Source: Mycolicibacterium smegmatis | GTDB taxonomy: Bacteria > Actinomycetota > Actinomycetes > Mycobacteriales > Mycobacteriaceae | DNA: 32,000 bases | NCBI RefSeq assembly: GCF_001457595.1 | Contig: NZ_LN831039.1 | Coordinates: 4,620,001 to 4,652,000 of the forward strand | Reading direction: 5' to 3' | In this document: piece by piece, positions 1 through 17,894 of the stretch | Numbering within the stretch: the stretch's first letter is position 1 | How the letters are laid out: the number at the start of each line of letters is the position of its first letter | The notes under the pieces: model-generated | The model's database searches: none | Seen by the model: the letters and a program-made list of their open reading frames with translations, nothing else | Told to the model about the DNA's origin: nothing | Translations under genes and position numbers: made by a program

Positions 1-452
1 CCGACGCCCCATTTGGTGTGCTGCAGGTGCAGGTCCACCGGGCTGGCCGGGCCGTACAGGGCCAGCATCACGAGGCTGGCCACGATGGTCGGAAGCGCGA
101 ACGGCAGATCGATCACCGAGTCGACGATGCGCTTGCCGGGGAACTCGTCACGGGTCAGCACCCACGCGACCAGCAGGCCGAACACCGCGTTCACGACCGT
201 CACGCCCGCGGAGATCGTCAGCGTGACCTGGAAGCTGTCGACCGCCGCGTTGGAGGTCACGGCGCGCCAGAACGCGTCCCAGCCACCACCGGCGGCCTGC
301 CAAAGGATCGCGGCCAGCGGCAGCAGCACGATCACGCTCAACCAGATCGACGCCGCGCCCACGCGCAGCGAGGTACTGCCGTAGCGTCCACGGGCCGCGC
401 GGGGAGCGGGTGCTCCCGGCGCGGCCGTCGACGCCTCGGCGGGTGCGGTCAT
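1..452 (-). CDS. cysT: Sulfate/thiosulfate ABC transporter permease CysT, N-terminal part (runs off the window start)
   Basis: The minus-strand frame is open from the ATG at 452-450 to position 1. It is absent from the ORF track because there is no in-window stop. My translation is MTAPAEAST...FPGKRIVDSVIDLPFALPTIVASLVMLALYGP. It is hydrophobic and carries the DLPFALPT permease loop typical of CysT/CysW. Its start overlaps the subI stop (ATGA at 449-452). Confidence 0.85.
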   Translation of the reverse strand, partial: MTAPAEASTAAPGAPAPRAARGRYGSTSLRVGAASIWLSVIVLLPLAAILWQAAGGGWDAFWRAVTSNAAVDSFQVTLTISAGVTVVNAVFGLLVAWVLTRDEFPGKRIVDSVIDLPFALPTIVASLVMLALYGPASPVDLHLQHTKWGV

Positions 453-1498
453 CCAGTGGCCTGCTTGTAGATCTTGGTGATGGTGCCGTTGTCCTTGTCG
501 AACAGCGACGGATCGACGGCGTCCCAGCCACCGAGGTCGTCGACCGTCCACAGCTTCTCCGGCGCCGGGAAGTCCGCGGCGAACTCGGCGGCGACCGCGG
601 GGTCGACGGGCCGGAAGCCGGCCTCGGCCCAGATCTTCTGGCCCTCGGGGGTGAACACGAAGTTCTTCAGCGCGTTGGCCGCCTCCGAGTGCGACGTGGT
701 GTTGACGACCGCGACCGGATTCTCGATCTTGAAGGTCTGCGGCGGGTTGACGTGCTCGACGGGCTTGCCCTGCCGCTCGACGTAGATCGCCTCGTTCTCG
801 TAGCTGATCAGCACGTCGCCCGTGCCCTGCAGGAACACGTCGGTGGCTTCACGGCCCGAGCCCGGGCGGGTCTTGACGTGCTCGGTGACCAGCTTGTTGA
901 CGAAGTCGATGCCCGCCTCGGGGTCCTGACCGCCGTTGCTCTTCGCGGCGTACGGCGCCAGCAGGTTCCACTTGGCCGAACCCGAGCTCAGCGGACTCGG
1001 GGTGACCACCTCGAGCCCCGGCTGCAACAGATCGTCCCAGTCCTTGATGCCCTTGGGGTTGCCCTGGCGCACGACGAGCGAAACCACCGAACCGAACGGG
1101 ATGCCCTTGGTGGCGCCGGCATTCCAGTCCTCGGCGACCTTGCCGGCCTTGACCAGACGGGTGATGTCGGGTTCGACCGAGAAGTTGACGATGTCGGCGG
1201 GCTTGCCGTCGACGACGGCGCGCGACTGGTCACCGGAGGCACCGAAGGACGTGCGCACCGCGACACCCTTGCCCTCATCGGTGGCGGTGAACGCGGGGAT
1301 GATCTTGCTCCAACCCGGCTCCGGCACGGCGTAGGCGACCAGCGTCAGCGTGGTCTCGGCGTTCGCGTCGGCACCGCCGTCGTCGCCTGCGACGTCACTC
1401 GCGCCGCCGCCGCAGCCGACGGCGAGGATGCCGGTGGCGGCGAGTGCTGTGGCGGTGCGCCAGAACTTGAACTTGGTGAGCTTCTCGGTGGTGGGCAC
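449..1498 (-). CDS. subI: Sulfate-binding lipoprotein SubI (ABC transporter substrate-binding protein)
   Basis: 349-aa ORF with a GTG start preceded by GAAAGG. It has a lipoprotein signal (..ATGILAVGCGGG) and the composition of a type-2 periplasmic sulfate/thiosulfate-binding protein. It is followed by cysT with translational coupling, matching the mycobacterial subI-cysTWA order. Confidence 0.9.
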   Translation of the reverse strand: MPTTEKLTKFKFWRTATALAATGILAVGCGGGASDVAGDDGGADANAETTLTLVAYAVPEPGWSKIIPAFTATDEGKGVAVRTSFGASGDQSRAVVDGKPADIVNFSVEPDITRLVKAGKVAEDWNAGATKGIPFGSVVSLVVRQGNPKGIKDWDDLLQPGLEVVTPSPLSSGSAKWNLLAPYAAKSNGGQDPEAGIDFVNKLVTEHVKTRPGSGREATDVFLQGTGDVLISYENEAIYVERQGKPVEHVNPPQTFKIENPVAVVNTTSHSEAANALKNFVFTPEGQKIWAEAGFRPVDPAVAAEFAADFPAPEKLWTVDDLGGWDAVDPSLFDKDNGTITKIYKQATG

Positions 1499-4156: not shown

Positions 4157-5434
4157 TCAGGCCGTGCGTCGTGCCTGCGCGCGCTCCCAGGTGACGTCGA
4201 ACCGCACCTCGTGCTGGGCGGGTACCGCGAGCACGACCGGGGTGAGGCTGCTGTTGGCCGCGTCGTGTGCGACGCCGGTGAGCACGCGGCCCCCGAATCC
4301 GTCGGTGCCTGCGGGTACGTGCACGGTGAGCGCCACGATGCCGGATCCGGTATCGGTGCGCAGGTAGAACTCGTCGTCTGGCGCCACCGGGCCCTCCATC
4401 GCAAAACCGTTGCGGTCCACCACATCTGCGTGATCCACCGTGATCGCGGCACGATCGGTTGCCTGCAATGTGAACGGCCCCACCAGATCGCCGTCGACGG
4501 CGGCCCGCTCGGCGATGACGGCCACCGGCACCGTGGCGCGCCGGGCCGCGTTCGCCCCCGCGACCAGATAGTTGTACAGATGTACCACCCGCTCGGGGTT
4601 CGCGAACGCCGCCGCACCGTTGAGCCAGAACGTGACATCACCGAGGTCCACCGTGGCGCCGCGGTCGGCCACGACGACCAACCGGTAGAAGCGGTAGCCG
4701 CGGCCGGTGCGGCCCGGCCGGGCCGACGACACCGTGGTGCCGACGCCGAGCGCGCGGCGGTGCCGTCCGCGTCCGGCCTCGAGGTTCAGCCCCGATGCCG
4801 CGACGTCCTCCCACTGCCGGCCGTCGGATGACTTCTGCAGCAGCAGCGACACCGCGGAATCGGACTCCAGTTCCACTGTGTAGCCGCCCAATTGGGGTTC
4901 GCCGTCGAACTCGAACACCAACCCGTCGGCAGTCCTGCGCCTCGCGACCGGCACGTTACGGGGGCGGTTGTCGAGTTCGAGTCCGTTGGTGAAGAACCAG
5001 ATGGCGGCCTGTGTCGCGGCGATGGCCTCGTGCTCGGCGAGATTTCCCGCGCCGAGTCCGATGCCTGCGGCGCGCACCCGCCGGCTCAACTCGACGGTGC
5101 CCAGCACGGGGTACGAGTTGCGCACGATCCAGTCGATCTCGGCCTCGAACGCGCGGGCCCGCAGGTTCGGCACCGCCGACCAGGCGCCCGCGCGGTAGCG
5201 CGACGGACGGGTCGGCGCGTGACCGGTGAAGTCCAGCGAGTACGCCTCGATGTTCGGGTTGAGGCGGATCAGGTCGGTTCTGGCGGTGGCACCGTCGGCG
5301 AACACGATCTTCTCGACGGTGTGCGAGTAGGTGCCGCCGCGATAGCGCGTCATGGGCGGAAGCTCGGCGAGACGCACGAGCGGACGCGGCCGGACGGATA
5401 CGGCAGAAGAGTGCAGAACAGACAGGGCAGACAT
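4157..5434 (-). CDS. TQXA / thioester-domain (TED)-like protein that lacks any cysteine and has no signal peptide or anchor
   Basis: 425-aa ORF. The TQxA(I/V)W motif is present as AIAATQAAIWFF (Gln142). The upstream motif that normally carries the thioester Cys (..AYC[IL]D..) reads EAYSLDF (Ser66, codon TCG at 5239-5237). There is no Cys anywhere in the protein. The central segment (~aa 170-265, ..GYRFYRLVVV..DVTFWL) looks like a discoidin/galactose-binding-like beta-sandwich. Confidence 0.75.
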   Translation of the reverse strand: MSALSVLHSSAVSVRPRPLVRLAELPPMTRYRGGTYSHTVEKIVFADGATARTDLIRLNPNIEAYSLDFTGHAPTRPSRYRAGAWSAVPNLRARAFEAEIDWIVRNSYPVLGTVELSRRVRAAGIGLGAGNLAEHEAIAATQAAIWFFTNGLELDNRPRNVPVARRRTADGLVFEFDGEPQLGGYTVELESDSAVSLLLQKSSDGRQWEDVAASGLNLEAGRGRHRRALGVGTTVSSARPGRTGRGYRFYRLVVVADRGATVDLGDVTFWLNGAAAFANPERVVHLYNYLVAGANAARRATVPVAVIAERAAVDGDLVGPFTLQATDRAAITVDHADVVDRNGFAMEGPVAPDDEFYLRTDTGSGIVALTVHVPAGTDGFGGRVLTGVAHDAANSSLTPVVLAVPAQHEVRFDVTWERAQARRTA

Positions 5435-5762
5435 GGGTGTTGACTTTCTGAAAGACCGGAAACGCGCAGGTCAACGCACCGCAAAGAAGGCGGGCGGACA
5501 ACGCAGGGAAAGCGTCAGAAAATCAACAACAACAACGCACGTCGAGGCAGCGCGCGATACCGAAGCGCAGCGAAGCGACGTGTTGCATGCGGCCCACCAT
5601 AGGGCAAGTCCGCCGGATCGGCCAGTCCCGGCCCTGATCACCGTCCGGGATCCGGTCAACATCACACATTGAAATCTGTCCGCGCACTAACGCTGTCCTA
5701 GGGCCGCGGCCGCCGTATTGTTTGCCACACGACCGCACTTCGACACCCGCCGGAGGAGCATC

Positions 5763-6686
5763 ATGACGTCCGCCCAGAACGAATCACAGGCCCTCGGCGA
5801 TCTCGCCGCACGGCAACTCGCGAACGCGACCAAGACAGTTCCCCAGCTGTCGACGATCACGCCACGATTCCTCTTGCACCTCCTCAGCTGGGTTCCTGTG
5901 GAGGCCGGCATCTACCGGGTGAACCGCGTGGTCAACCCCGACCGGGTGGCGATCCACTCCGAGGCGGGCGCGGGTACCGAGGAACCGCTGCCCGAGACCT
6001 ACGTCGACTACGAGACCCATCCGCGCGAGTACACGTTGCGGTCCATCTCGACGCTGCTCGACGTGCACACCCGGGTCTCGGACCTGTACTCCAGCCCGCA
6101 CGACCAGGTCACACAGCAGTTGCGGCTGACCATCGAGACCATCAAAGAGCGCCAGGAGTACGAACTGGTCAACAACCCCGAATACGGGTTGCTGGCGCAG
6201 GCGACGCCCGAGCAGACCATCCAGACCCTGGCCGGTGCTCCGACCCCCGACGATCTCGACGCGCTGATCACCAAGGTGTGGAAGACACCCGCGTTCTTCC
6301 TGACCCATCCGCTGGGCGTGGCCGCTTTCGGCCGGGAGTGCACCTACCGCGGCGTGCCGCCGCCAACCGTCAGCATGTACGGCGCCCAGTTCATCACGTG
6401 GCGCGGCATCCCGATCGTGCCGAGCGACAAGGTGCCCGTCGAGGACGGCAAGACCAAGTTCGTCCTCGTGCGCACCGGTGAGGAGCGCCAAGGCGTGGTC
6501 GGCCTGTTCCAGCCGGGACTGGTCGGTGAGCAGGCGCCGGGTCTGTCCGTGCGTTTCACCGGCATCAACCGTTCGGCGATCGCGTCGTACCTGGTGACGC
6601 TCTACACGTCGCTCGCGGTGCTCACCGACGACGCACTCGCCGTCCTCGACGGCGTCGCCGTGGACCAGTTCCATGAGTACCAGTGA
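5763..6686 (+). CDS. Family 2A encapsulin nanocompartment shell protein (MMP-I / 35-kDa antigen type)
   Basis: Track ORF 5718..6686 was trimmed to the ATG at 5763, which has a GGAGGAG Shine-Dalgarno 5 nt upstream. The 307-aa product has N-terminus MTSAQNESQALGDLAARQLANATKTVPQLSTITPRFLLHLLSWVPVEAGIYRVNRV, the hallmark N-arm of Family 2 encapsulins. From memory it is nearly identical to M. leprae major membrane protein I. It has no cNMP-binding insertion (hence 2A) and is immediately followed by a cysteine desulfurase with a disordered N-terminal domain. Confidence 0.9.
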   Translation: MTSAQNESQALGDLAARQLANATKTVPQLSTITPRFLLHLLSWVPVEAGIYRVNRVVNPDRVAIHSEAGAGTEEPLPETYVDYETHPREYTLRSISTLLDVHTRVSDLYSSPHDQVTQQLRLTIETIKERQEYELVNNPEYGLLAQATPEQTIQTLAGAPTPDDLDALITKVWKTPAFFLTHPLGVAAFGRECTYRGVPPPTVSMYGAQFITWRGIPIVPSDKVPVEDGKTKFVLVRTGEERQGVVGLFQPGLVGEQAPGLSVRFTGINRSAIASYLVTLYTSLAVLTDDALAVLDGVAVDQFHEYQ

Positions 6687-15180: not shown

Positions 15181-16563
15181 CTATTGGAAATGAACCGATT
15201 TACGACGGAAGGCAGACGCGGGGTGTGCGTCCCCGAGAAGGGGTGAGTCACCGCCGAACAGGCGCTGCCGCAACGTCGTCGGATCGCCCACCGCACGGGC
15301 ACGACCGCGTCGCCGCAGTTCCGGGATCAGGTGGGTCGCGACGTCGGCGAAACTTCCCGGCGTGACGTGATAGGCGATGTTGAAACCGTCGACACCGGTC
15401 TTCTCGGCGTATGCCTCCAATTCGTCGGCCACCGTCGAACCGGACCCGACGAACAGTTCCCCACCGAATCCGCCGAGGCCACCCACGTAGTCCCGCAGTG
15501 TCAGACGTTCGCGCGTATCCGAATCGTTGACCGCGGCGAGGATCGACCGGCTCGCGTCGGTGTCGAACTGCTCGATCGGGCGGTCGACGCCGTACGTGGA
15601 CCAGTCGATTCCGCTGAGCGCCGACAGCAGCACCAGACCGCCCTCCAGGTCGTGGAACCGTGCCAGTTCGTCAGCCTTGGACCGCGCAGCCGAATCGCTG
15701 CTGTCGGTGACGATCTCGACCGAGGTGATGAACTTCAACGACCCCGGGTCGCGGCCGTGTGCGGCGGCCCGCCGTCGGACGTCGTCGATGTTGGCACGCA
15801 GCACGTCGGGACGCGGATCCGAGACGAACACCAATTCGGCGTTGCGGGCGGCGAATTCACGCCCGGCAGTCGAGGTACCGGCCTGGAACAGCACCGGTGT
15901 GCGCTGAGGTGACGGTTCGACGAGATGTGCACCAGGAACGCTGAAGTACCTGCCCTCGTGGGCGATGTCGTGCACCTTCGCCGGATCCGTGAACACACCG
16001 CGCTCACGGTCACGGACCACCGCGTCCGGTTCCCACGAGCCCTCCCACAGCTTGTAGGTGACCTCGACGAACTCCTGCGCCATTGCGTACCGCTCGTCGT
16101 GCGGGATCTGCCTGTCCCGGCCGATGATGTTGCGCGCCGCGCTGTCCAGCAGGGAGGTGACGATGTTCCACCCGATCCTGCCGCGCGTGAGGTGGTCGAG
16201 GGTGCTGAATTTACGGGCCAACAGGTATGGGCTCTCATAGGTGGTCGACACCGTGATCCCGAACCCCAGTCGCTGCGTGGCCGCGGCCATCGCCGACACC
16301 GCAAGCAACGGATCGGTGACCGGTGTCTGCACCGCCCGAGCCAGTGCCGCGCTGGCGTCGCCACCGAACACGTCGAGTTGTCCCACCGCGTCGGCGATGA
16401 ACAACAGGTCGAACCCGCCGTCGTCGAGCAGACGCGCGAGGTCCATCCAGTAGCCGATGTCGGTGTAGTCGGAGGTGCGGTCCTGCGGGTGGCGCCACAT
16501 TCCGAAGTTGCCGTGCGACACCGTCGACATGGTGAAAGCAGACAGCACATAGGGTTCGGTCAC
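15181..16563 (-). CDS. FMNH2-dependent LLM-class monooxygenase, NtaA/SnaA/DszA family
   Basis: The 611-aa track ORF was trimmed to the GTG at 16563-16561, which overlaps the upstream stop (GTGA). The N-terminus VTEPYVLSAFTMSTVSHGNFGMWRHP matches the family N-terminal pattern (..L.AF.M....H...G.WRHP). Confidence 0.85.
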   Translation of the reverse strand: MTEPYVLSAFTMSTVSHGNFGMWRHPQDRTSDYTDIGYWMDLARLLDDGGFDLLFIADAVGQLDVFGGDASAALARAVQTPVTDPLLAVSAMAAATQRLGFGITVSTTYESPYLLARKFSTLDHLTRGRIGWNIVTSLLDSAARNIIGRDRQIPHDERYAMAQEFVEVTYKLWEGSWEPDAVVRDRERGVFTDPAKVHDIAHEGRYFSVPGAHLVEPSPQRTPVLFQAGTSTAGREFAARNAELVFVSDPRPDVLRANIDDVRRRAAAHGRDPGSLKFITSVEIVTDSSDSAARSKADELARFHDLEGGLVLLSALSGIDWSTYGVDRPIEQFDTDASRSILAAVNDSDTRERLTLRDYVGGLGGFGGELFVGSGSTVADELEAYAEKTGVDGFNIAYHVTPGSFADVATHLIPELRRRGRARAVGDPTTLRQRLFGGDSPLLGDAHPASAFRRKSVHFQ

Positions 16564-17894
16564 GACACCGACCTCTGCGGGATGTCCAGGCCCAGATGCG
16601 CACGCAGCGTCGTACCGGTGTACTCGTGGCGGAACAGCCCACGCTTGCGCAGCACCGGCACCACCTGTTCGACGAAGAGTTCGTGCTGGCCCGGCAATCC
16701 GGAATCGCGCAGGACGAACCCGTCGGCGGCCCCGGTGGTGAACCACTCCTCGATGGTGTCGGCGATGCGTTCGGGTGTTCCCACAACCGCGGCACCCCAC
16801 CCGTTCACCGTGCGGTACAGGAACTCCCGCACCGTCGGGTTGCCCTCGCTCGCCAGATGGCGGTAGCCCGCGAGAGCGGTCTGATGGGTTTCGGTGTGCT
16901 CGGGGAACGCCGAGTCCGGGACCGGACCGTCCAGGTCGGCGCCGGTGACATCGACGTCGACCTCCAACAACCATCCGGCCTGGTACCCGGGGCTGAAGTA
17001 TTCGTACTCCTCGCACTCGGCACGACGGGCTTCCTCGTCGGTCGAACCGACGATGTAGCGCAGCGACGGTGTGATCAGCGGTGGCGCGCCACGTCCGAAT
17101 TGCCGTGACTGCTCGTGGATCTGGCCGTAGAACGTCTGTGCGCGCTCGCGGTTGCCGTGGCTGGTGAAGATCACCTCGGCGTGCCTGGCAGCGAAAGCGC
17201 GTCCGGTTTCGGAGGATCCGGCCTGGAAGAGCACCGGCTGCCCCTGCGCTGAACGCGCCGCGCCGATCGGGCCTGCGACGTCGAAGTAGCGTCCGTGATG
17301 GTTGGCCGGCCGGATCCGGCCGACATCGTTGAAGATTCCCGCCGGGCGGTCCTCGACGATGGTGTCCTCACCCCATTCGTCCCACAGCTTGCGGACCACC
17401 TCGAGTGCTTCCTCGGCGATGGCGTAGCGATCGTCGTGGTCGATCACGCCGCGCGCACTGAAATTGTCCGCCGCTGCCCGCGCGAAGCTGGTCACCAGGT
17501 TCCAGCCGGCCCGGCCACCGCTGAGGTGATCGAGCGAGAGAAGCTGGCGCGCCAGGTGATACGGGTGCGCCAGCGTCGCCGATCCCGTCACGACGAGACC
17601 GATGTGCTCGGTCACCGACGACAGCGCCGCAGTGGCGGTGAGCGGTTCGAAGTCCTCGGTGATCTTGTACGCCCACGTCGCAGGCGGGCCATAGTTCAAG
17701 CCGTCGGCGAAGAACAACGCGTCGAAGGTTCCGGCCTCGGCGGTCTGCGCGTAAGCGATCAGCCGGCGTCGCACCCCCGCAGGCGTGTTGTCGGCGGCGG
17801 GATGGCGCCACGGACCGGCTGACCGGGTGTTGCCAAAGGCCAGCAGATGAAGCTCTCTGGTCACTCCCGCGAAGTTACGGCTCACGAATGCCAC
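16560..17894 (-). CDS. FMNH2-dependent LLM-class monooxygenase, NtaA/SnaA/DszA family (paralogue)
   Basis: 444 aa. It carries ..RELHLLAFGNTRSAGPWRHP.. and the shared blocks LDHLSGGRAGWNLVTS and PVLFQAGSSETGRAFAARHAEVIF. An alternative GTG start at 17864 is possible. Confidence 0.85.
   Translation of the reverse strand: MAFVSRNFAGVTRELHLLAFGNTRSAGPWRHPAADNTPAGVRRRLIAYAQTAEAGTFDALFFADGLNYGPPATWAYKITEDFEPLTATAALSSVTEHIGLVVTGSATLAHPYHLARQLLSLDHLSGGRAGWNLVTSFARAAADNFSARGVIDHDDRYAIAEEALEVVRKLWDEWGEDTIVEDRPAGIFNDVGRIRPANHHGRYFDVAGPIGAARSAQGQPVLFQAGSSETGRAFAARHAEVIFTSHGNRERAQTFYGQIHEQSRQFGRGAPPLITPSLRYIVGSTDEEARRAECEEYEYFSPGYQAGWLLEVDVDVTGADLDGPVPDSAFPEHTETHQTALAGYRHLASEGNPTVREFLYRTVNGWGAAVVGTPERIADTIEEWFTTGAADGFVLRDSGLPGQHELFVEQVVPVLRKRGLFRHEYTGTTLRAHLGLDIPQRSVS

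What the first reader, a model, noticed from the sequence alone, without database searches (positions are those of the whole stretch)
4157..5434. Cysteine-free, signal-peptide-free TQXA (thioester-domain-like) protein divergently paired with the encapsulin operon
Thioester domains of Gram-positive adhesins form a Cys-Gln thioester. The Cys lies in an ..AYC[IL]D.. motif and the Gln in TQxA(I/V)W.

This ORF keeps the Gln motif perfectly (ATQAAIW) and the context of the first motif (TDLIRLNPNIEAYSLDF), but Ser66 replaces the Cys. The codon is TCG, two substitutions away from any Cys codon, so this is not a single-base error. The protein contains no Cys at all. It also lacks a secretion signal, TM segment or sorting motif, and carries an inserted discoidin-like segment.

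Possible explanations are a Ser-Gln oxoester analogue (Thr-Gln ester cross-links are known in clostridial adhesin domains), a degenerate TED reused as a cytoplasmic binding module, or a partner of the adjacent nanocompartment. It shares a 328-bp divergent control region with the encapsulin operon.
Basis: partly seen in the sequence, partly recalled or inferred. Interest (0 to 1): 0.7.

Follow-up and report, generated by a model that had tools for sequence, protein, structure and literature searches.

The report
Thioester-less TED protein partnering sulfur encapsulin
This gene encodes a cytoplasmic relative of Gram-positive "thioester" adhesin domains that has lost both bond-forming residues, always sits next to the sulfur-storing family 2A encapsulin genes in actinobacteria, and in mycobacteria carries a cysteine-sensing leader, so it is probably an overlooked third part of that compartment system.

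Summary
The ORF at 4157-5434(-) encodes 425 aa with no Cys. Ser66 (TCG) sits exactly where thioester domains (TEDs) carry their Cys. The ATQAAIW helix is intact, there is no signal peptide, TM segment or LPXTG motif, a CBM32/discoidin-like domain is inserted, and 328 bp separate it from the encapsulin gene.

The chemical premise is wrong. The thioester Gln of TEDs is not the TQxA Gln but a C-terminal beta-strand Gln. That position here is an invariant Thr398-Pro399, so both reactive residues are gone, and Ser66-Gln142 proximity would not be diagnostic.

The "encapsulin partner" idea is strongly supported. Every locus with enough flanking sequence (77 mycobacterial, 6 distant, 3 reached from the encapsulin side) has TED-like, Enc2A and cysteine desulfurase genes together. 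The pair is divergent in Mycobacteriaceae and co-directional in the non-mycobacterial loci, including Propionibacteriales and Branchiibius. Encapsulin papers call this a two-gene operon.

Upstream lies a leaderless poly-Cys uORF (5588-5523) whose tail pairs with the TED ribosome-binding site. It matches the published cysteine-responsive attenuator Ms4536A and is present in 78/79 mycobacterial loci.

Best reading: a low-cysteine-induced, non-thioester accessory of the sulfur encapsulin. Its molecular action is unknown.

The parts
4157..5434 (-). TED-like ('TQXA') protein gene, 425 aa, the counterpart of M. smegmatis Ms4536 (assigned from the shared TQXA annotation and poly-Cys uORF architecture, not by sequence comparison)
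   Evidence: ORF. Pfam TED and TIGR03934 both above cutoff. 929 homologues. High GC3 of 0.86.
5237..5239 (-). Ser66 codon (TCG), at the position of the thioester Cys
   Evidence: hhalign aligns AYSLDF to YCIDV. Ser in 121/121 close homologues and in nearly all 50%-identity representatives.
4997..5032 (-). Helix segment His135-Glu136...Thr141-Gln142...Trp146 (HEAIAATQAAIW)
   Evidence: Invariant in the family. The His is specific to encapsulin-linked members; canonical TEDs have E/T/D/K and secreted relatives have W, S or A at that position.
4601..4957 (-). Inserted CBM32/discoidin-like beta-sandwich (about residues 160-278)
   Evidence: AF2 strands 162-271 with pLDDT above 90. Foldseek CBM32 hits with probability 1.0. 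Appears as a gap in hhalign against canonical TEDs. Weak F5_F8_type_C Pfam hits in relatives.
4238..4243 (-). Thr398-Pro399, at the position of the thioester-forming Gln strand
   Evidence: Canonical TEDs have K-T-Q-T-L-I there. The family has L-T-P-V. The register is uncertain by one residue, but there is no Gln anywhere in residues 385-407.
5439..5450 (-). TED ribosome-binding region CAGAAAGUCAAC, the 3' arm of the anti-SD duplex
   Evidence: MFE fold. The SD core lies inside the paired segment in 77/77 loci.
5514..5527 (-). 5' arm of the anti-SD duplex (GUUGAUUUUCUGAC), overlapping the last Cys codon and the UGA stop of the uORF
   Evidence: -59.2 kcal/mol, z = -3.67; mean duplex energy -14.4 against -6.3 for shuffles. 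Compensatory change from U-A (47 loci) to C-G (12 loci).
5523..5588 (-). Leaderless poly-Cys uORF encoding MQHVASLRFGIARCLDVRCCC*
   Evidence: Present in 78/79 mycobacterial loci with 3-11 terminal Cys. It is the only such sORF in the 32 kb window. It matches Ms4536A of Canestrari et al..
5596..5601 (-). -10 box TATGGT, 7 nt upstream of the uORF ATG (leaderless transcript)
   Evidence: TATGGT, TATAGT, TATAAT or TATCGT lies 6-7 nt from the ATG in the loci. These are invariant columns in alignment A5.
5763..6686 (+). Family 2A encapsulin shell gene (SrpI/Mmp1-like)
   Evidence: NF041162 E=1e-150 and PF19307 E=3e-98. True ATG at 5763.
6673..8352 (+). Encapsulin cargo cysteine desulfurase with a disordered N-terminal loading domain
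   Evidence: NF041166 E=9e-258. LSALATQLF and ESPDYYFL motifs correspond to LARLANEFFS and AASPYYFLDG.

Best explanation
The gene encodes a cytoplasmic member of the thioester-domain (TED) superfamily in which both thioester-forming residues have been replaced. Cys has become an invariant Ser66, and the Gln strand has become an invariant Thr398-Pro399. A CBM32/discoidin-like sandwich is inserted between the TQ helix and helix alpha3. The protein therefore cannot make the canonical Cys-Gln thioester.

It is a dedicated third component of actinobacterial family 2A cysteine-desulfurase encapsulin loci. In Mycobacteriaceae it is transcribed divergently from the shell gene on a leaderless mRNA. The first ORF of that mRNA ends in 3-11 Cys codons. 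The uORF tail base-pairs with the TED ribosome-binding site. When Cys-tRNA is scarce, ribosomes stalled on the Cys codons should unmask the site, so the protein is made under cysteine limitation.

Inferred step: the protein then acts on the sulfur-storing compartment through its conserved polar pocket and its CBM32-like and Ig-like domains. It would do so by non-covalent binding, to the shell exterior or to a sulfur-pathway ligand, tuning sulfur deposition or mobilisation.

Shown: homology, loss of the reactive pair, linkage, and the attenuator architecture.

Inferred: the cysteine response of this particular gene, cytoplasmic action on the shell, and the binding mode.
For: Homology.

Loss of Cys and Gln: read against the TED definitions in PMC4450167 and PMC6194298.

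No export signals.

Linkage. 77/80 genome loci have Enc2A 343-660 bp from the conserved Met28 codon, and 71 also have the desulfurase; the 3 failures are truncated contigs. The other flank (GH15) is kept in only 43/80. Six of 6 distant homologues (31-45% identity; Branchiibius and unnamed MAGs) lie immediately upstream of Enc2A-CyD and co-directional with it, in unrelated surroundings. Three of 3 look-ups starting from the encapsulin (Propionicimonas, Arachnia, Mycolicibacter) find the TED gene adjacent.

Attenuator. The uORF with a -10 box 6-7 nt upstream is found in 78/79 loci. The anti-SD duplex is supported. The published mechanism and the Ms4536A/TQXA locus are, and a uORF upstream of the M. 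abscessus TQXA gene is reported.

Context. The window also carries a sulfate-binding protein, an SfnB-like oxidoreductase and an FMN monooxygenase. CysK/CysE or PALP-rhodanese genes lie downstream in L090 and L088.
Against: There is no direct evidence of physical or functional interaction.

M. smegmatis MSMEG_4537-4538 alone give loaded shells (PMC11659603). The native M. paratuberculosis complex was reported as shell plus desulfurase only (cited in PMC8049743). The protein is therefore not needed for assembly or loading. However, those preparations came from conditions in which the attenuator should keep it off, and Ms4536 was undetected by proteomics.

The cysteine response of Ms4536 itself was not demonstrated.

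Five of the 6 distant (non-mycobacterial) loci scanned lack a poly-Cys uORF.

Structural similarity to solved TEDs could not be shown significantly. The best hit was 5a0g_C (TM 0.39, E=1.3, from a model with pLDDT 66).

The strict conservation of Ser66, His135, Glu136 and Asp68 hints at chemistry rather than plain binding.
Confidence: 0.6

Rival explanations
1. Non-canonical intramolecular oxoester. Ser66 O-gamma attacks the side-chain amide of Gln142 (the TQ-helix Gln). His135 and Glu136 or Asp68 act as a protease-like catalytic set. NH3 is released, giving a Ser-Gln ester that either staples the strand to the helix or serves as a reactive acyl donor.
For: Ser66, Gln142, His135 and Glu136 are invariant. 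The His is a family-specific gain. In TEDs the TQ Gln side chain hydrogen-bonds to the backbone of the Cys residue, so the two groups should be a few angstroms apart (PMC6194298). Thr-Gln esters catalysed by a His/Asp set exist in adhesin Ig domains (PMC12679949 abstract).
Against: In every characterised TED the TQ Gln is not the bond partner and is dispensable. The TQ Gln is conserved in most TEDs anyway, so its invariance carries little information. A few family members have Ala or Glu at position 66. No coordinates were available to check the geometry, and a cytoplasmic protein has no obvious need for a mechanical staple.
Confidence: 0.1
2. The remodelled TED pocket is an enzyme active site. 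A Ser66-His135-acid triad would hydrolyse or transfer an acyl, amide or ester group of a cysteine- or sulfur-pathway metabolite or of a protein side chain.
For: A cluster of invariant polar residues sits around the former thioester site: Thr53, Asp54, Arg57, Ser66, Asp68, His135, Glu136 and Gln142. Conservation is highest in this lobe. Expression is tied to cysteine limitation.
Against: No similarity to any hydrolase family was found in Pfam or NCBIfam. The spatial arrangement is untested. No substrate is suggested by the neighbouring genes.
Confidence: 0.12
3. It is a second cargo protein, loaded inside the 2A shell through its variable, disordered, Arg/Pro-rich N-terminal extension.
For: All members have a 25-100 residue low-complexity N-terminal extension. 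Family 2 cargo proteins typically carry disordered termini.
Against: The extension shows no similarity to the cognate desulfurase loading domain in 10/10 loci; scores are within the shuffled range, below its mean in 8 of 10. It lacks the LARLANEFF-like and VAPRG motifs. Residues 12-17 are predicted to add a strand to the folded domain. The desulfurase was the sole cargo detected in A. baumannii, which has no TED gene, and shells purified from mycobacteria showed shell plus desulfurase only.
Confidence: 0.08
4. It is a relic or non-classically exported adhesin-like surface protein, and its position next to the encapsulin is only inherited synteny.
For: The closest multi-domain relatives are secreted, membrane-anchored proteins with the same Ser-type TED plus F5/8C module. 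The mycobacterial 2A shell was historically called a 'major membrane protein'.
Against: Linkage survives several actinobacterial lineages, an inversion of gene orientation and complete turnover of the flanking genes. No member has a signal peptide or anchor. Purifying selection acts on about 60 invariant positions.
Confidence: 0.03

Closest known systems
Bacterial thioester domains (TEDs) of Gram-positive TIE adhesins (Cpa, SfbI, CpTIE, BaTIE; Pfam PF08341, TIGR03934)
   Same: Homologous fold. It has the N-terminal beta hairpin carrying the [YFL]-x-Phi-zeta motif, three core helices with TQxxPhiW, helix alpha3, and a closing beta hairpin followed by an Ig-like domain. As in class II TEDs, a beta-sandwich is inserted into the fold.
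   Different: Cys is replaced by Ser and the bond-forming Gln by Thr-Pro, so there is no thioester. There is no signal peptide, stalk repeats or cell-wall anchor. The insert is CBM32-like and lies between alpha2 and alpha3, not between alpha3 and strand P as in class II. The protein is cytoplasmic and genetically tied to an encapsulin.
Accessory components of family 2A cysteine-desulfurase encapsulin operons (rhodanese, serine O-acetyltransferase; Benisch et al. 2024, Andreas and Giessen 2021)
   Same: A non-shell, apparently non-cargo gene conserved next to Enc2A-CyD and tied to sulfur or cysteine limitation.
   Different: It is unrelated in fold. It has no Cys, so it cannot carry a persulfide as a rhodanese does. 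It was found here only in actinobacterial lineages and is not mentioned in the encapsulin papers read, which describe a two-gene actinobacterial operon.
Ms4536A/Ms4536 (TQXA) locus of the M. smegmatis 'Cys ribulon' (Canestrari et al. 2020)
   Same: Same architecture: a leaderless polycysteine sORF upstream of a single TQXA gene. The duplex-masking arrangement matches the mechanism shown for Ms5788A.
   Different: That study could not detect the protein or assign a function, and it did not note the neighbouring encapsulin. Here the uORF is shown in 78/79 mycobacterial loci, with a compensatory change in the anti-SD helix.
Thr-Gln ester-bond Ig-like domains (Cpe0147; Mobiluncus adhesin)
   Same: A hydroxyl nucleophile plus a His/acid set is conceivable at Ser66, His135 and Glu136.
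   Different: The fold is different (an Ig-like stalk domain), the Gln partner lies on a strand, and no homologous motif is present here.

Membership tests
Thioester domain (TED) superfamily, by homology | Significant match to the PF08341 and TIGR03934 profiles and to canonical TED sequences | tested here: met
   E=8e-10 and E=5e-17, both above the curated cutoffs. hhalign gives 99.6-99.9% probability against secreted Cys-TEDs.
Functional thioester domain | Thioester-forming Cys in the [YFL]C-Phi-zeta motif | tested here: not met
   Ser66 aligns to the Cys. The protein has no Cys at all. Ser is present in 121/121 close homologues.
Functional thioester domain | Thioester-forming Gln in the C-terminal beta strand (PhiQzetaPhiPhi) | tested here: not met
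   Canonical TEDs have KTQTLI; this family has LTPVxL with invariant Thr398-Pro399. There is no Gln in residues 385-407.
Functional thioester domain | TQxxPhiW helix next to the bond | tested here: met
   ATQAAIW, with Thr141, Gln142 and Trp146 invariant.
Functional thioester domain | TED three-dimensional fold | tested here: inconclusive
Functional thioester domain | Covalent cross-link (17 Da mass loss) or adduct formation | not testable with these tools
   Requires mass spectrometry or a crystal structure.
TIE surface adhesins | Secretion signal, stalk repeats, and an LPXTG or membrane anchor | tested here: not met
   Maximum hydropathy is 1.18. No LPXTG motif occurs in the query or in 120 homologues. 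N-termini are Arg/Pro-rich and not hydrophobic.
Family 2A desulfurase encapsulin system (as an accessory component) | Conserved adjacency to Enc2A and its desulfurase cargo across lineages | tested here: met
   Adjacency holds in 77/77 testable mycobacterial loci, 6/6 distant loci and 3/3 loci reached from the encapsulin side.
Family 2A desulfurase encapsulin system (as an accessory component) | Physical or functional interaction with the shell or cargo | not testable with these tools
   Published shell preparations lack it, but they were made under conditions in which it is probably not expressed.
Mycobacterial polycysteine leaderless-sORF attenuators (Cys ribulon) | A leaderless start (-10 box 6-7 nt upstream), a run of consecutive Cys codons at the end of the sORF, and an RNA duplex masking the downstream ribosome-binding site | tested here: met
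.
Mycobacterial polycysteine leaderless-sORF attenuators (Cys ribulon) | Cysteine-dependent expression of the downstream gene | not testable with these tools
   This was not shown even for Ms4536 in the source paper.
CBM32 / F5-8 type C (discoidin) domain | Beta-sandwich fold match and profile match | tested here: inconclusive
   Foldseek gives probability 1.0 and TM 0.50-0.56 to CBM32 modules. Pfam F5_F8_type_C is matched only below cutoff, and only in relatives. Ligand-binding residues were not assessed.

The most novel reading that the evidence does not exclude
The former thioester pocket has been rebuilt around Ser66, His135, Glu136 (with Asp68) and Gln142 to carry out new covalent chemistry. 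This could be an autocatalytic Ser-Gln oxoester. Alternatively, like adhesin TEDs attacking a host Lys, it could attach covalently to a residue of the HK97-fold encapsulin shell. Either way, it would be a cysteine-starvation-induced covalent decoration or gate of a bacterial nanocompartment.
Probability: 0.1. Interest if true: 0.9.

Novelty: new variant of a known kind. Interest (0 to 1): 0.66.

Why it matters
Family 2A desulfurase encapsulins store elemental sulfur, but it is not known how deposition is controlled or how the store is mobilised. In Proteobacteria the accessory genes are a rhodanese and a serine acetyltransferase. For actinobacteria, including the M. leprae and M. avium antigen Mmp1, the system is described as a two-gene operon.

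A third gene that is always adjacent gives a concrete candidate for the missing control or mobilisation step. It is Cys-poor and, in mycobacteria, placed behind a cysteine-sensing leader. It also explains why the function of the 'TQXA' member of the mycobacterial Cys ribulon was obscure.

For the TED field, it defines a large Ser-type clade. That clade includes secreted two-module proteins that keep the Gln. In this clade the idea of oxoester chemistry can be tested properly.

Tried and rejected
- Gln200 as the ester partner (it lies at the right sequence distance from Ser66): rejected. It is Q or E across the family and lies in the CBM32-like insert.
- 'Cysteine-free' or sulfur-poor composition as a signature: rejected. 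Neighbouring unrelated proteins are equally poor in Cys and Met.
- The conserved intergenic block as a riboswitch or structured RNA: no Rfam hit, and RNAalifold found essentially no consensus structure on either strand. It resolved instead into a -10 box, a poly-Cys uORF and a long-range anti-SD duplex.
- PDB sequence searches with the protein and with the family profile: no hits.
- Foldseek with the full model: swamped by the jelly-roll insert. A truncated N-lobe model was too poorly predicted.
- A shared cargo-targeting motif with the desulfurase: none found.
- Literature linking encapsulins and thioester domains: none. Supplementary neighbourhood tables showed PF08341 only near unrelated DyP systems, in a truncated file.
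- M. abscessus SigH data for MAB_0219: the table row is garbled and the change was not restored by complementation, so it was not used as evidence.
Full report
**1. What is there**

The minus-strand ORF at 4157-5434 encodes a 425-aa protein with ATG and TGA ends. It contains no cysteine. Ser66 (TCG, 5237-5239) lies in NIEAYSLDF, and Thr141-Gln142 lie in ATQAAIW. Both curated TED models are matched above their cutoffs: PF08341 at E=8e-10 and TIGR03934 at E=5e-17.

The neighbours are a family 2A encapsulin shell gene and its cysteine-desulfurase cargo. The shell gene has its true ATG at 5763 and ends at 6686 (NF041162, E=1e-150). The cargo gene spans 6673-8352 (NF041166, E=9e-258).

There is no TM segment (maximum hydropathy 1.18), no hydrophobic N-terminus and no LPXTG or Tat motif. 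Canonical TED proteins retrieved in the same searches score 2.0-3.0 at their signal peptides and anchors.

**2. Family and the Ser**

The word-indexed search found 929 relatives. The exhaustive search found 273 clusters at 50% identity, and 262 species genomes encode a relative. In an alignment of the 120 best hits, Ser66 and Gln142 are invariant in 121/121 sequences including the query.

Among the 50%-identity representatives, Ser persists down to about 35% identity. Three have Ala and one has Glu. Only the weakest hits (P0250, P0262, P0270) have YCID, and those proteins carry signal peptides and LPXTG or membrane anchors. Profile-profile alignment of the family against these canonical Cys-TEDs gives 99.6-99.9% probability and puts Ser66 on the Cys.

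**3. The chemical premise is wrong**

The TED literature is explicit. The thioester forms between the Cys of [YFL]C-Phi-zeta and a Gln in a weak PhiQzetaPhiPhi motif on a C-terminal beta strand. The TQxxPhiW Gln and Trp sit on helix alpha2 next to the bond and hydrogen-bond to the Cys backbone. They are not required for bond formation (PMC4450167 section 6; PMC6194298).

In the canonical actinobacterial TEDs, the bond-forming Gln is in K-T-Q-T-L-I, 20 residues before a conserved Trp. The corresponding strand in this family reads S-x-L-T-P-V-x-L-A-V, with Thr398 and Pro399 invariant. There is no Gln between residues 385 and 407. The secreted relative P0222, which keeps L-T-Q-L-G, aligns its Gln to Pro399. 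A global hhalign puts it on Thr398, so the register is uncertain by one residue.

Either way, both reactive residues are gone. Gln200 was considered as a partner but is Q or E across the family and lies in the inserted domain.

**4. Architecture**

The AF2 model has pLDDT 81 and pTM 0.78. It shows these elements in order:
- strands at 12-81, with Ser66 in strand 62-68;
- helices at 91-150, with the TQ helix at 134-150;
- an eight-strand sandwich at 162-271;
- a long helix at 281-300;
- an Ig-like domain at 305-416.

Foldseek matches the sandwich to CBM32 modules with probability 1.0. hhalign shows it as an insertion between the TQ helix and alpha3, which explains why Pfam matches only profile positions 3-74 of 102.

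**5. Link to the encapsulin**

In 80 genome loci, all Mycobacteriaceae, 77 carry Enc2A divergently upstream and 71 also carry the desulfurase. The three exceptions are contigs that end within 350 bp of the gene. The gene on the other side (GH15) is present in only 43. The spacing between the Enc2A ATG and the conserved Met28 codon is 343-463 bp in 74 of the 77.

Six distant homologues were examined, 31-45% identical. One is from Branchiibius hedensis and the rest are from unnamed assemblies. All six lie immediately upstream of SrpI-like Enc2A and the desulfurase, co-directional with them, at gaps of 61-170 bp. Their surroundings are otherwise unrelated.

Starting instead from the encapsulin, the Propionicimonas, Arachnia and Mycolicibacter loci all have the TED gene adjacent. 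In Propionicimonas it overlaps the shell gene by 11 nt. All of these proteins share AYS[LV]D and xHE[AI]IAATQAA[IL]W, and nearly all share [FL]TP[LV].

The shell is 75-92% identical across these lineages, whereas the TED-like protein is 31-69% identical.

The encapsulin papers I could read list only rhodanese and serine O-acetyltransferase as accessories. They describe the actinobacterial system as a two-gene operon. No paper combines 'encapsulin' and 'thioester' in this sense.

**6. Regulation**

The conserved block in the intergenic region gave no Rfam hit and essentially no RNAalifold consensus. Read on the TED strand, it resolves into three elements:
- a -10 box (TATGGT, 5601-5596);
- 7 nt further on, an ATG opening a 21-codon ORF, MQHVASLRFGIARCLDVRCCC*, at 5588-5523;
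- an RNA duplex between the uORF tail and the TED ribosome-binding site.

The same leaderless uORF, ending in 3-11 Cys codons, is present in 78 of 79 mycobacterial loci. It is the only such sORF in the 32 kb window.

The 14 nt spanning the last Cys codon, the UGA stop and the following bases (5527-5514) pair with the TED ribosome-binding region (5450-5439). This pairing appears in the minimum-energy fold (-59.2 kcal/mol, z = -3.67, 0 of 200 shuffles as stable). Across 77 loci the duplex averages -14.4 kcal/mol, against -6.3 for shuffled partners. The SD core is inside the duplex in 77/77 loci. One base pair switches from U-A (47 loci) to C-G (12 loci), with only 2 mismatches.

This is the architecture described by Canestrari et al. 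for polycysteine leaderless sORFs. Ribosomes stalled in the Cys tract prevent a duplex that otherwise sequesters the downstream ribosome-binding site. Those authors list Ms4536A upstream of 'Ms4536/TQXA'. They could not detect its product, and they left its membership of the cysteine regulon open. A conserved uORF upstream of the M. abscessus TQXA gene is also on record. Of the six distant (non-mycobacterial) loci scanned, one (L087) has a comparable uORF.

**7. How it most likely works**

The following are shown:
- it is a TED homologue that cannot form the canonical thioester;
- it has no export signals;
- it is genetically coupled to the sulfur-storing encapsulin in several actinobacterial lineages;
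- in mycobacteria it sits behind a cysteine-attenuator architecture.

The following are inferred:
- it is produced when cysteine is scarce;
- it acts on the compartment from the cytoplasmic side, by binding the shell or a pathway ligand.

It is not needed for shell assembly or cargo loading, because MSMEG_4537-4538 alone give loaded shells. Its absence from purified complexes is weak evidence, since they came from conditions that should keep it off.

Its N-terminal extension has nothing in common with the desulfurase loading domain, which argues against a cargo role. With no Cys, it cannot be a persulfide carrier.

The invariant polar set around the old thioester site leaves room for real chemistry. 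This set comprises Thr53, Asp54, Arg57, Ser66, Asp68, His135, Glu136 and Gln142. I therefore keep a non-canonical Ser66-Gln142 ester and a Ser-His-acid enzyme as rivals.

**8. Novelty**

The protein family is annotated as 'TQXA' or 'thioester domain-containing', and its uORF is published for M. smegmatis. Three points appear to be new, as far as the searchable literature shows:
- both bond-forming residues are replaced in a large, constrained Ser-type clade;
- this clade is a conserved third component of actinobacterial 2A desulfurase encapsulin loci;
- the cysteine-sensing leader therefore connects the 'Cys ribulon' to the encapsulin.

I class it as a new variant of a known kind.

Noticed in passing
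Proteins P0172, P0200 and P0222 (representatives; sequences): These are long secreted actinobacterial proteins (874-1125 aa, with a signal peptide and in two of three a C-terminal membrane anchor). They carry two TED modules, both with Ser at the Cys position (YSVDF, YSADF/YSADW). The second module has the same F5/8C-like insert, and in P0222 keeps a Gln (LTQLG) that hmmalign places on the bond-forming strand; P0172 and P0200 carry a similar LLQLG/LTQLG motif by eye. The first module has Glu there (RE[TN]L). They are better candidates for a genuine Ser-Gln ester than the window protein.
   Followed up: partly
L084 4907-5847, L085 4935-5850, L089 9994-10912, L081 6368-6988: A DUF4395 gene, paired with a thioredoxin gene in three of these four loci (L081 has DUF4395 only), lies next to the TED-Enc2A-CyD cluster in 4 of the 9 additional loci examined outside the 80-genome set. 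This may be a reductive route for mobilising stored sulfur.
   Followed up: no
window 449-1498(-), 9871-11106(-), 16560-17894(-): The window is rich in sulfur-acquisition genes. It has a sulfate ABC substrate-binding protein (TIGR00971, above cutoff), an SfnB-like sulfur-acquisition oxidoreductase (best hit, below cutoff) and an NtaA/DmoA-family FMN monooxygenase.
   Followed up: partly
window 5718-5765: The longest ORF for the encapsulin starts at TTG 5718. The conserved start is the ATG at 5763, preceded by GGAGGAGC, and the shell profile begins about 10 residues after it.
   Followed up: yes
window 6673-6686: The desulfurase ATG overlaps the end of the encapsulin gene by 14 nt, which suggests translational coupling. 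The same overlap appears in L081 and L084-L090.
   Followed up: no
L088 7955-9292; L090 7598-9126: Downstream of the desulfurase, Propionicimonas has a PALP-rhodanese fusion. Mycolicibacter has a PALP (CysK-like) gene followed by a Hexapep (CysE-like) gene. These echo the rhodanese and acetyltransferase accessories of proteobacterial operons.
   Followed up: no
Alignment A8 compared: The Enc2A shell protein is 75-92% identical across Mycobacteriales, Micrococcales and Propionibacteriales. Its TED-like neighbour is only 31-69% identical, and the desulfurase is 63-84% identical among the mycobacterial loci, so the rates of evolution are very unequal.
   Followed up: no
window 5602-5762: The Enc2A promoter and 5' region is much less conserved than the TED leader. 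Only short blocks recur (TTTGAATC/TTTGCATC and GCGCTAAC..TG), and no poly-Cys uORF precedes the encapsulin. In mycobacteria the two divergent units are therefore probably controlled differently.
   Followed up: partly
PMC13340314 Table 2: The M. abscessus TQXA gene MAB_0219 is listed among the most changed transcripts. Its pattern matches that of MAB_2459-2462, which the text appears to describe as sulfonate transporter and FMNH2 oxygenase genes, and is not restored by sigH complementation. The row is garbled, and orthology to the encapsulin-linked clade was not verified.
   Followed up: partly
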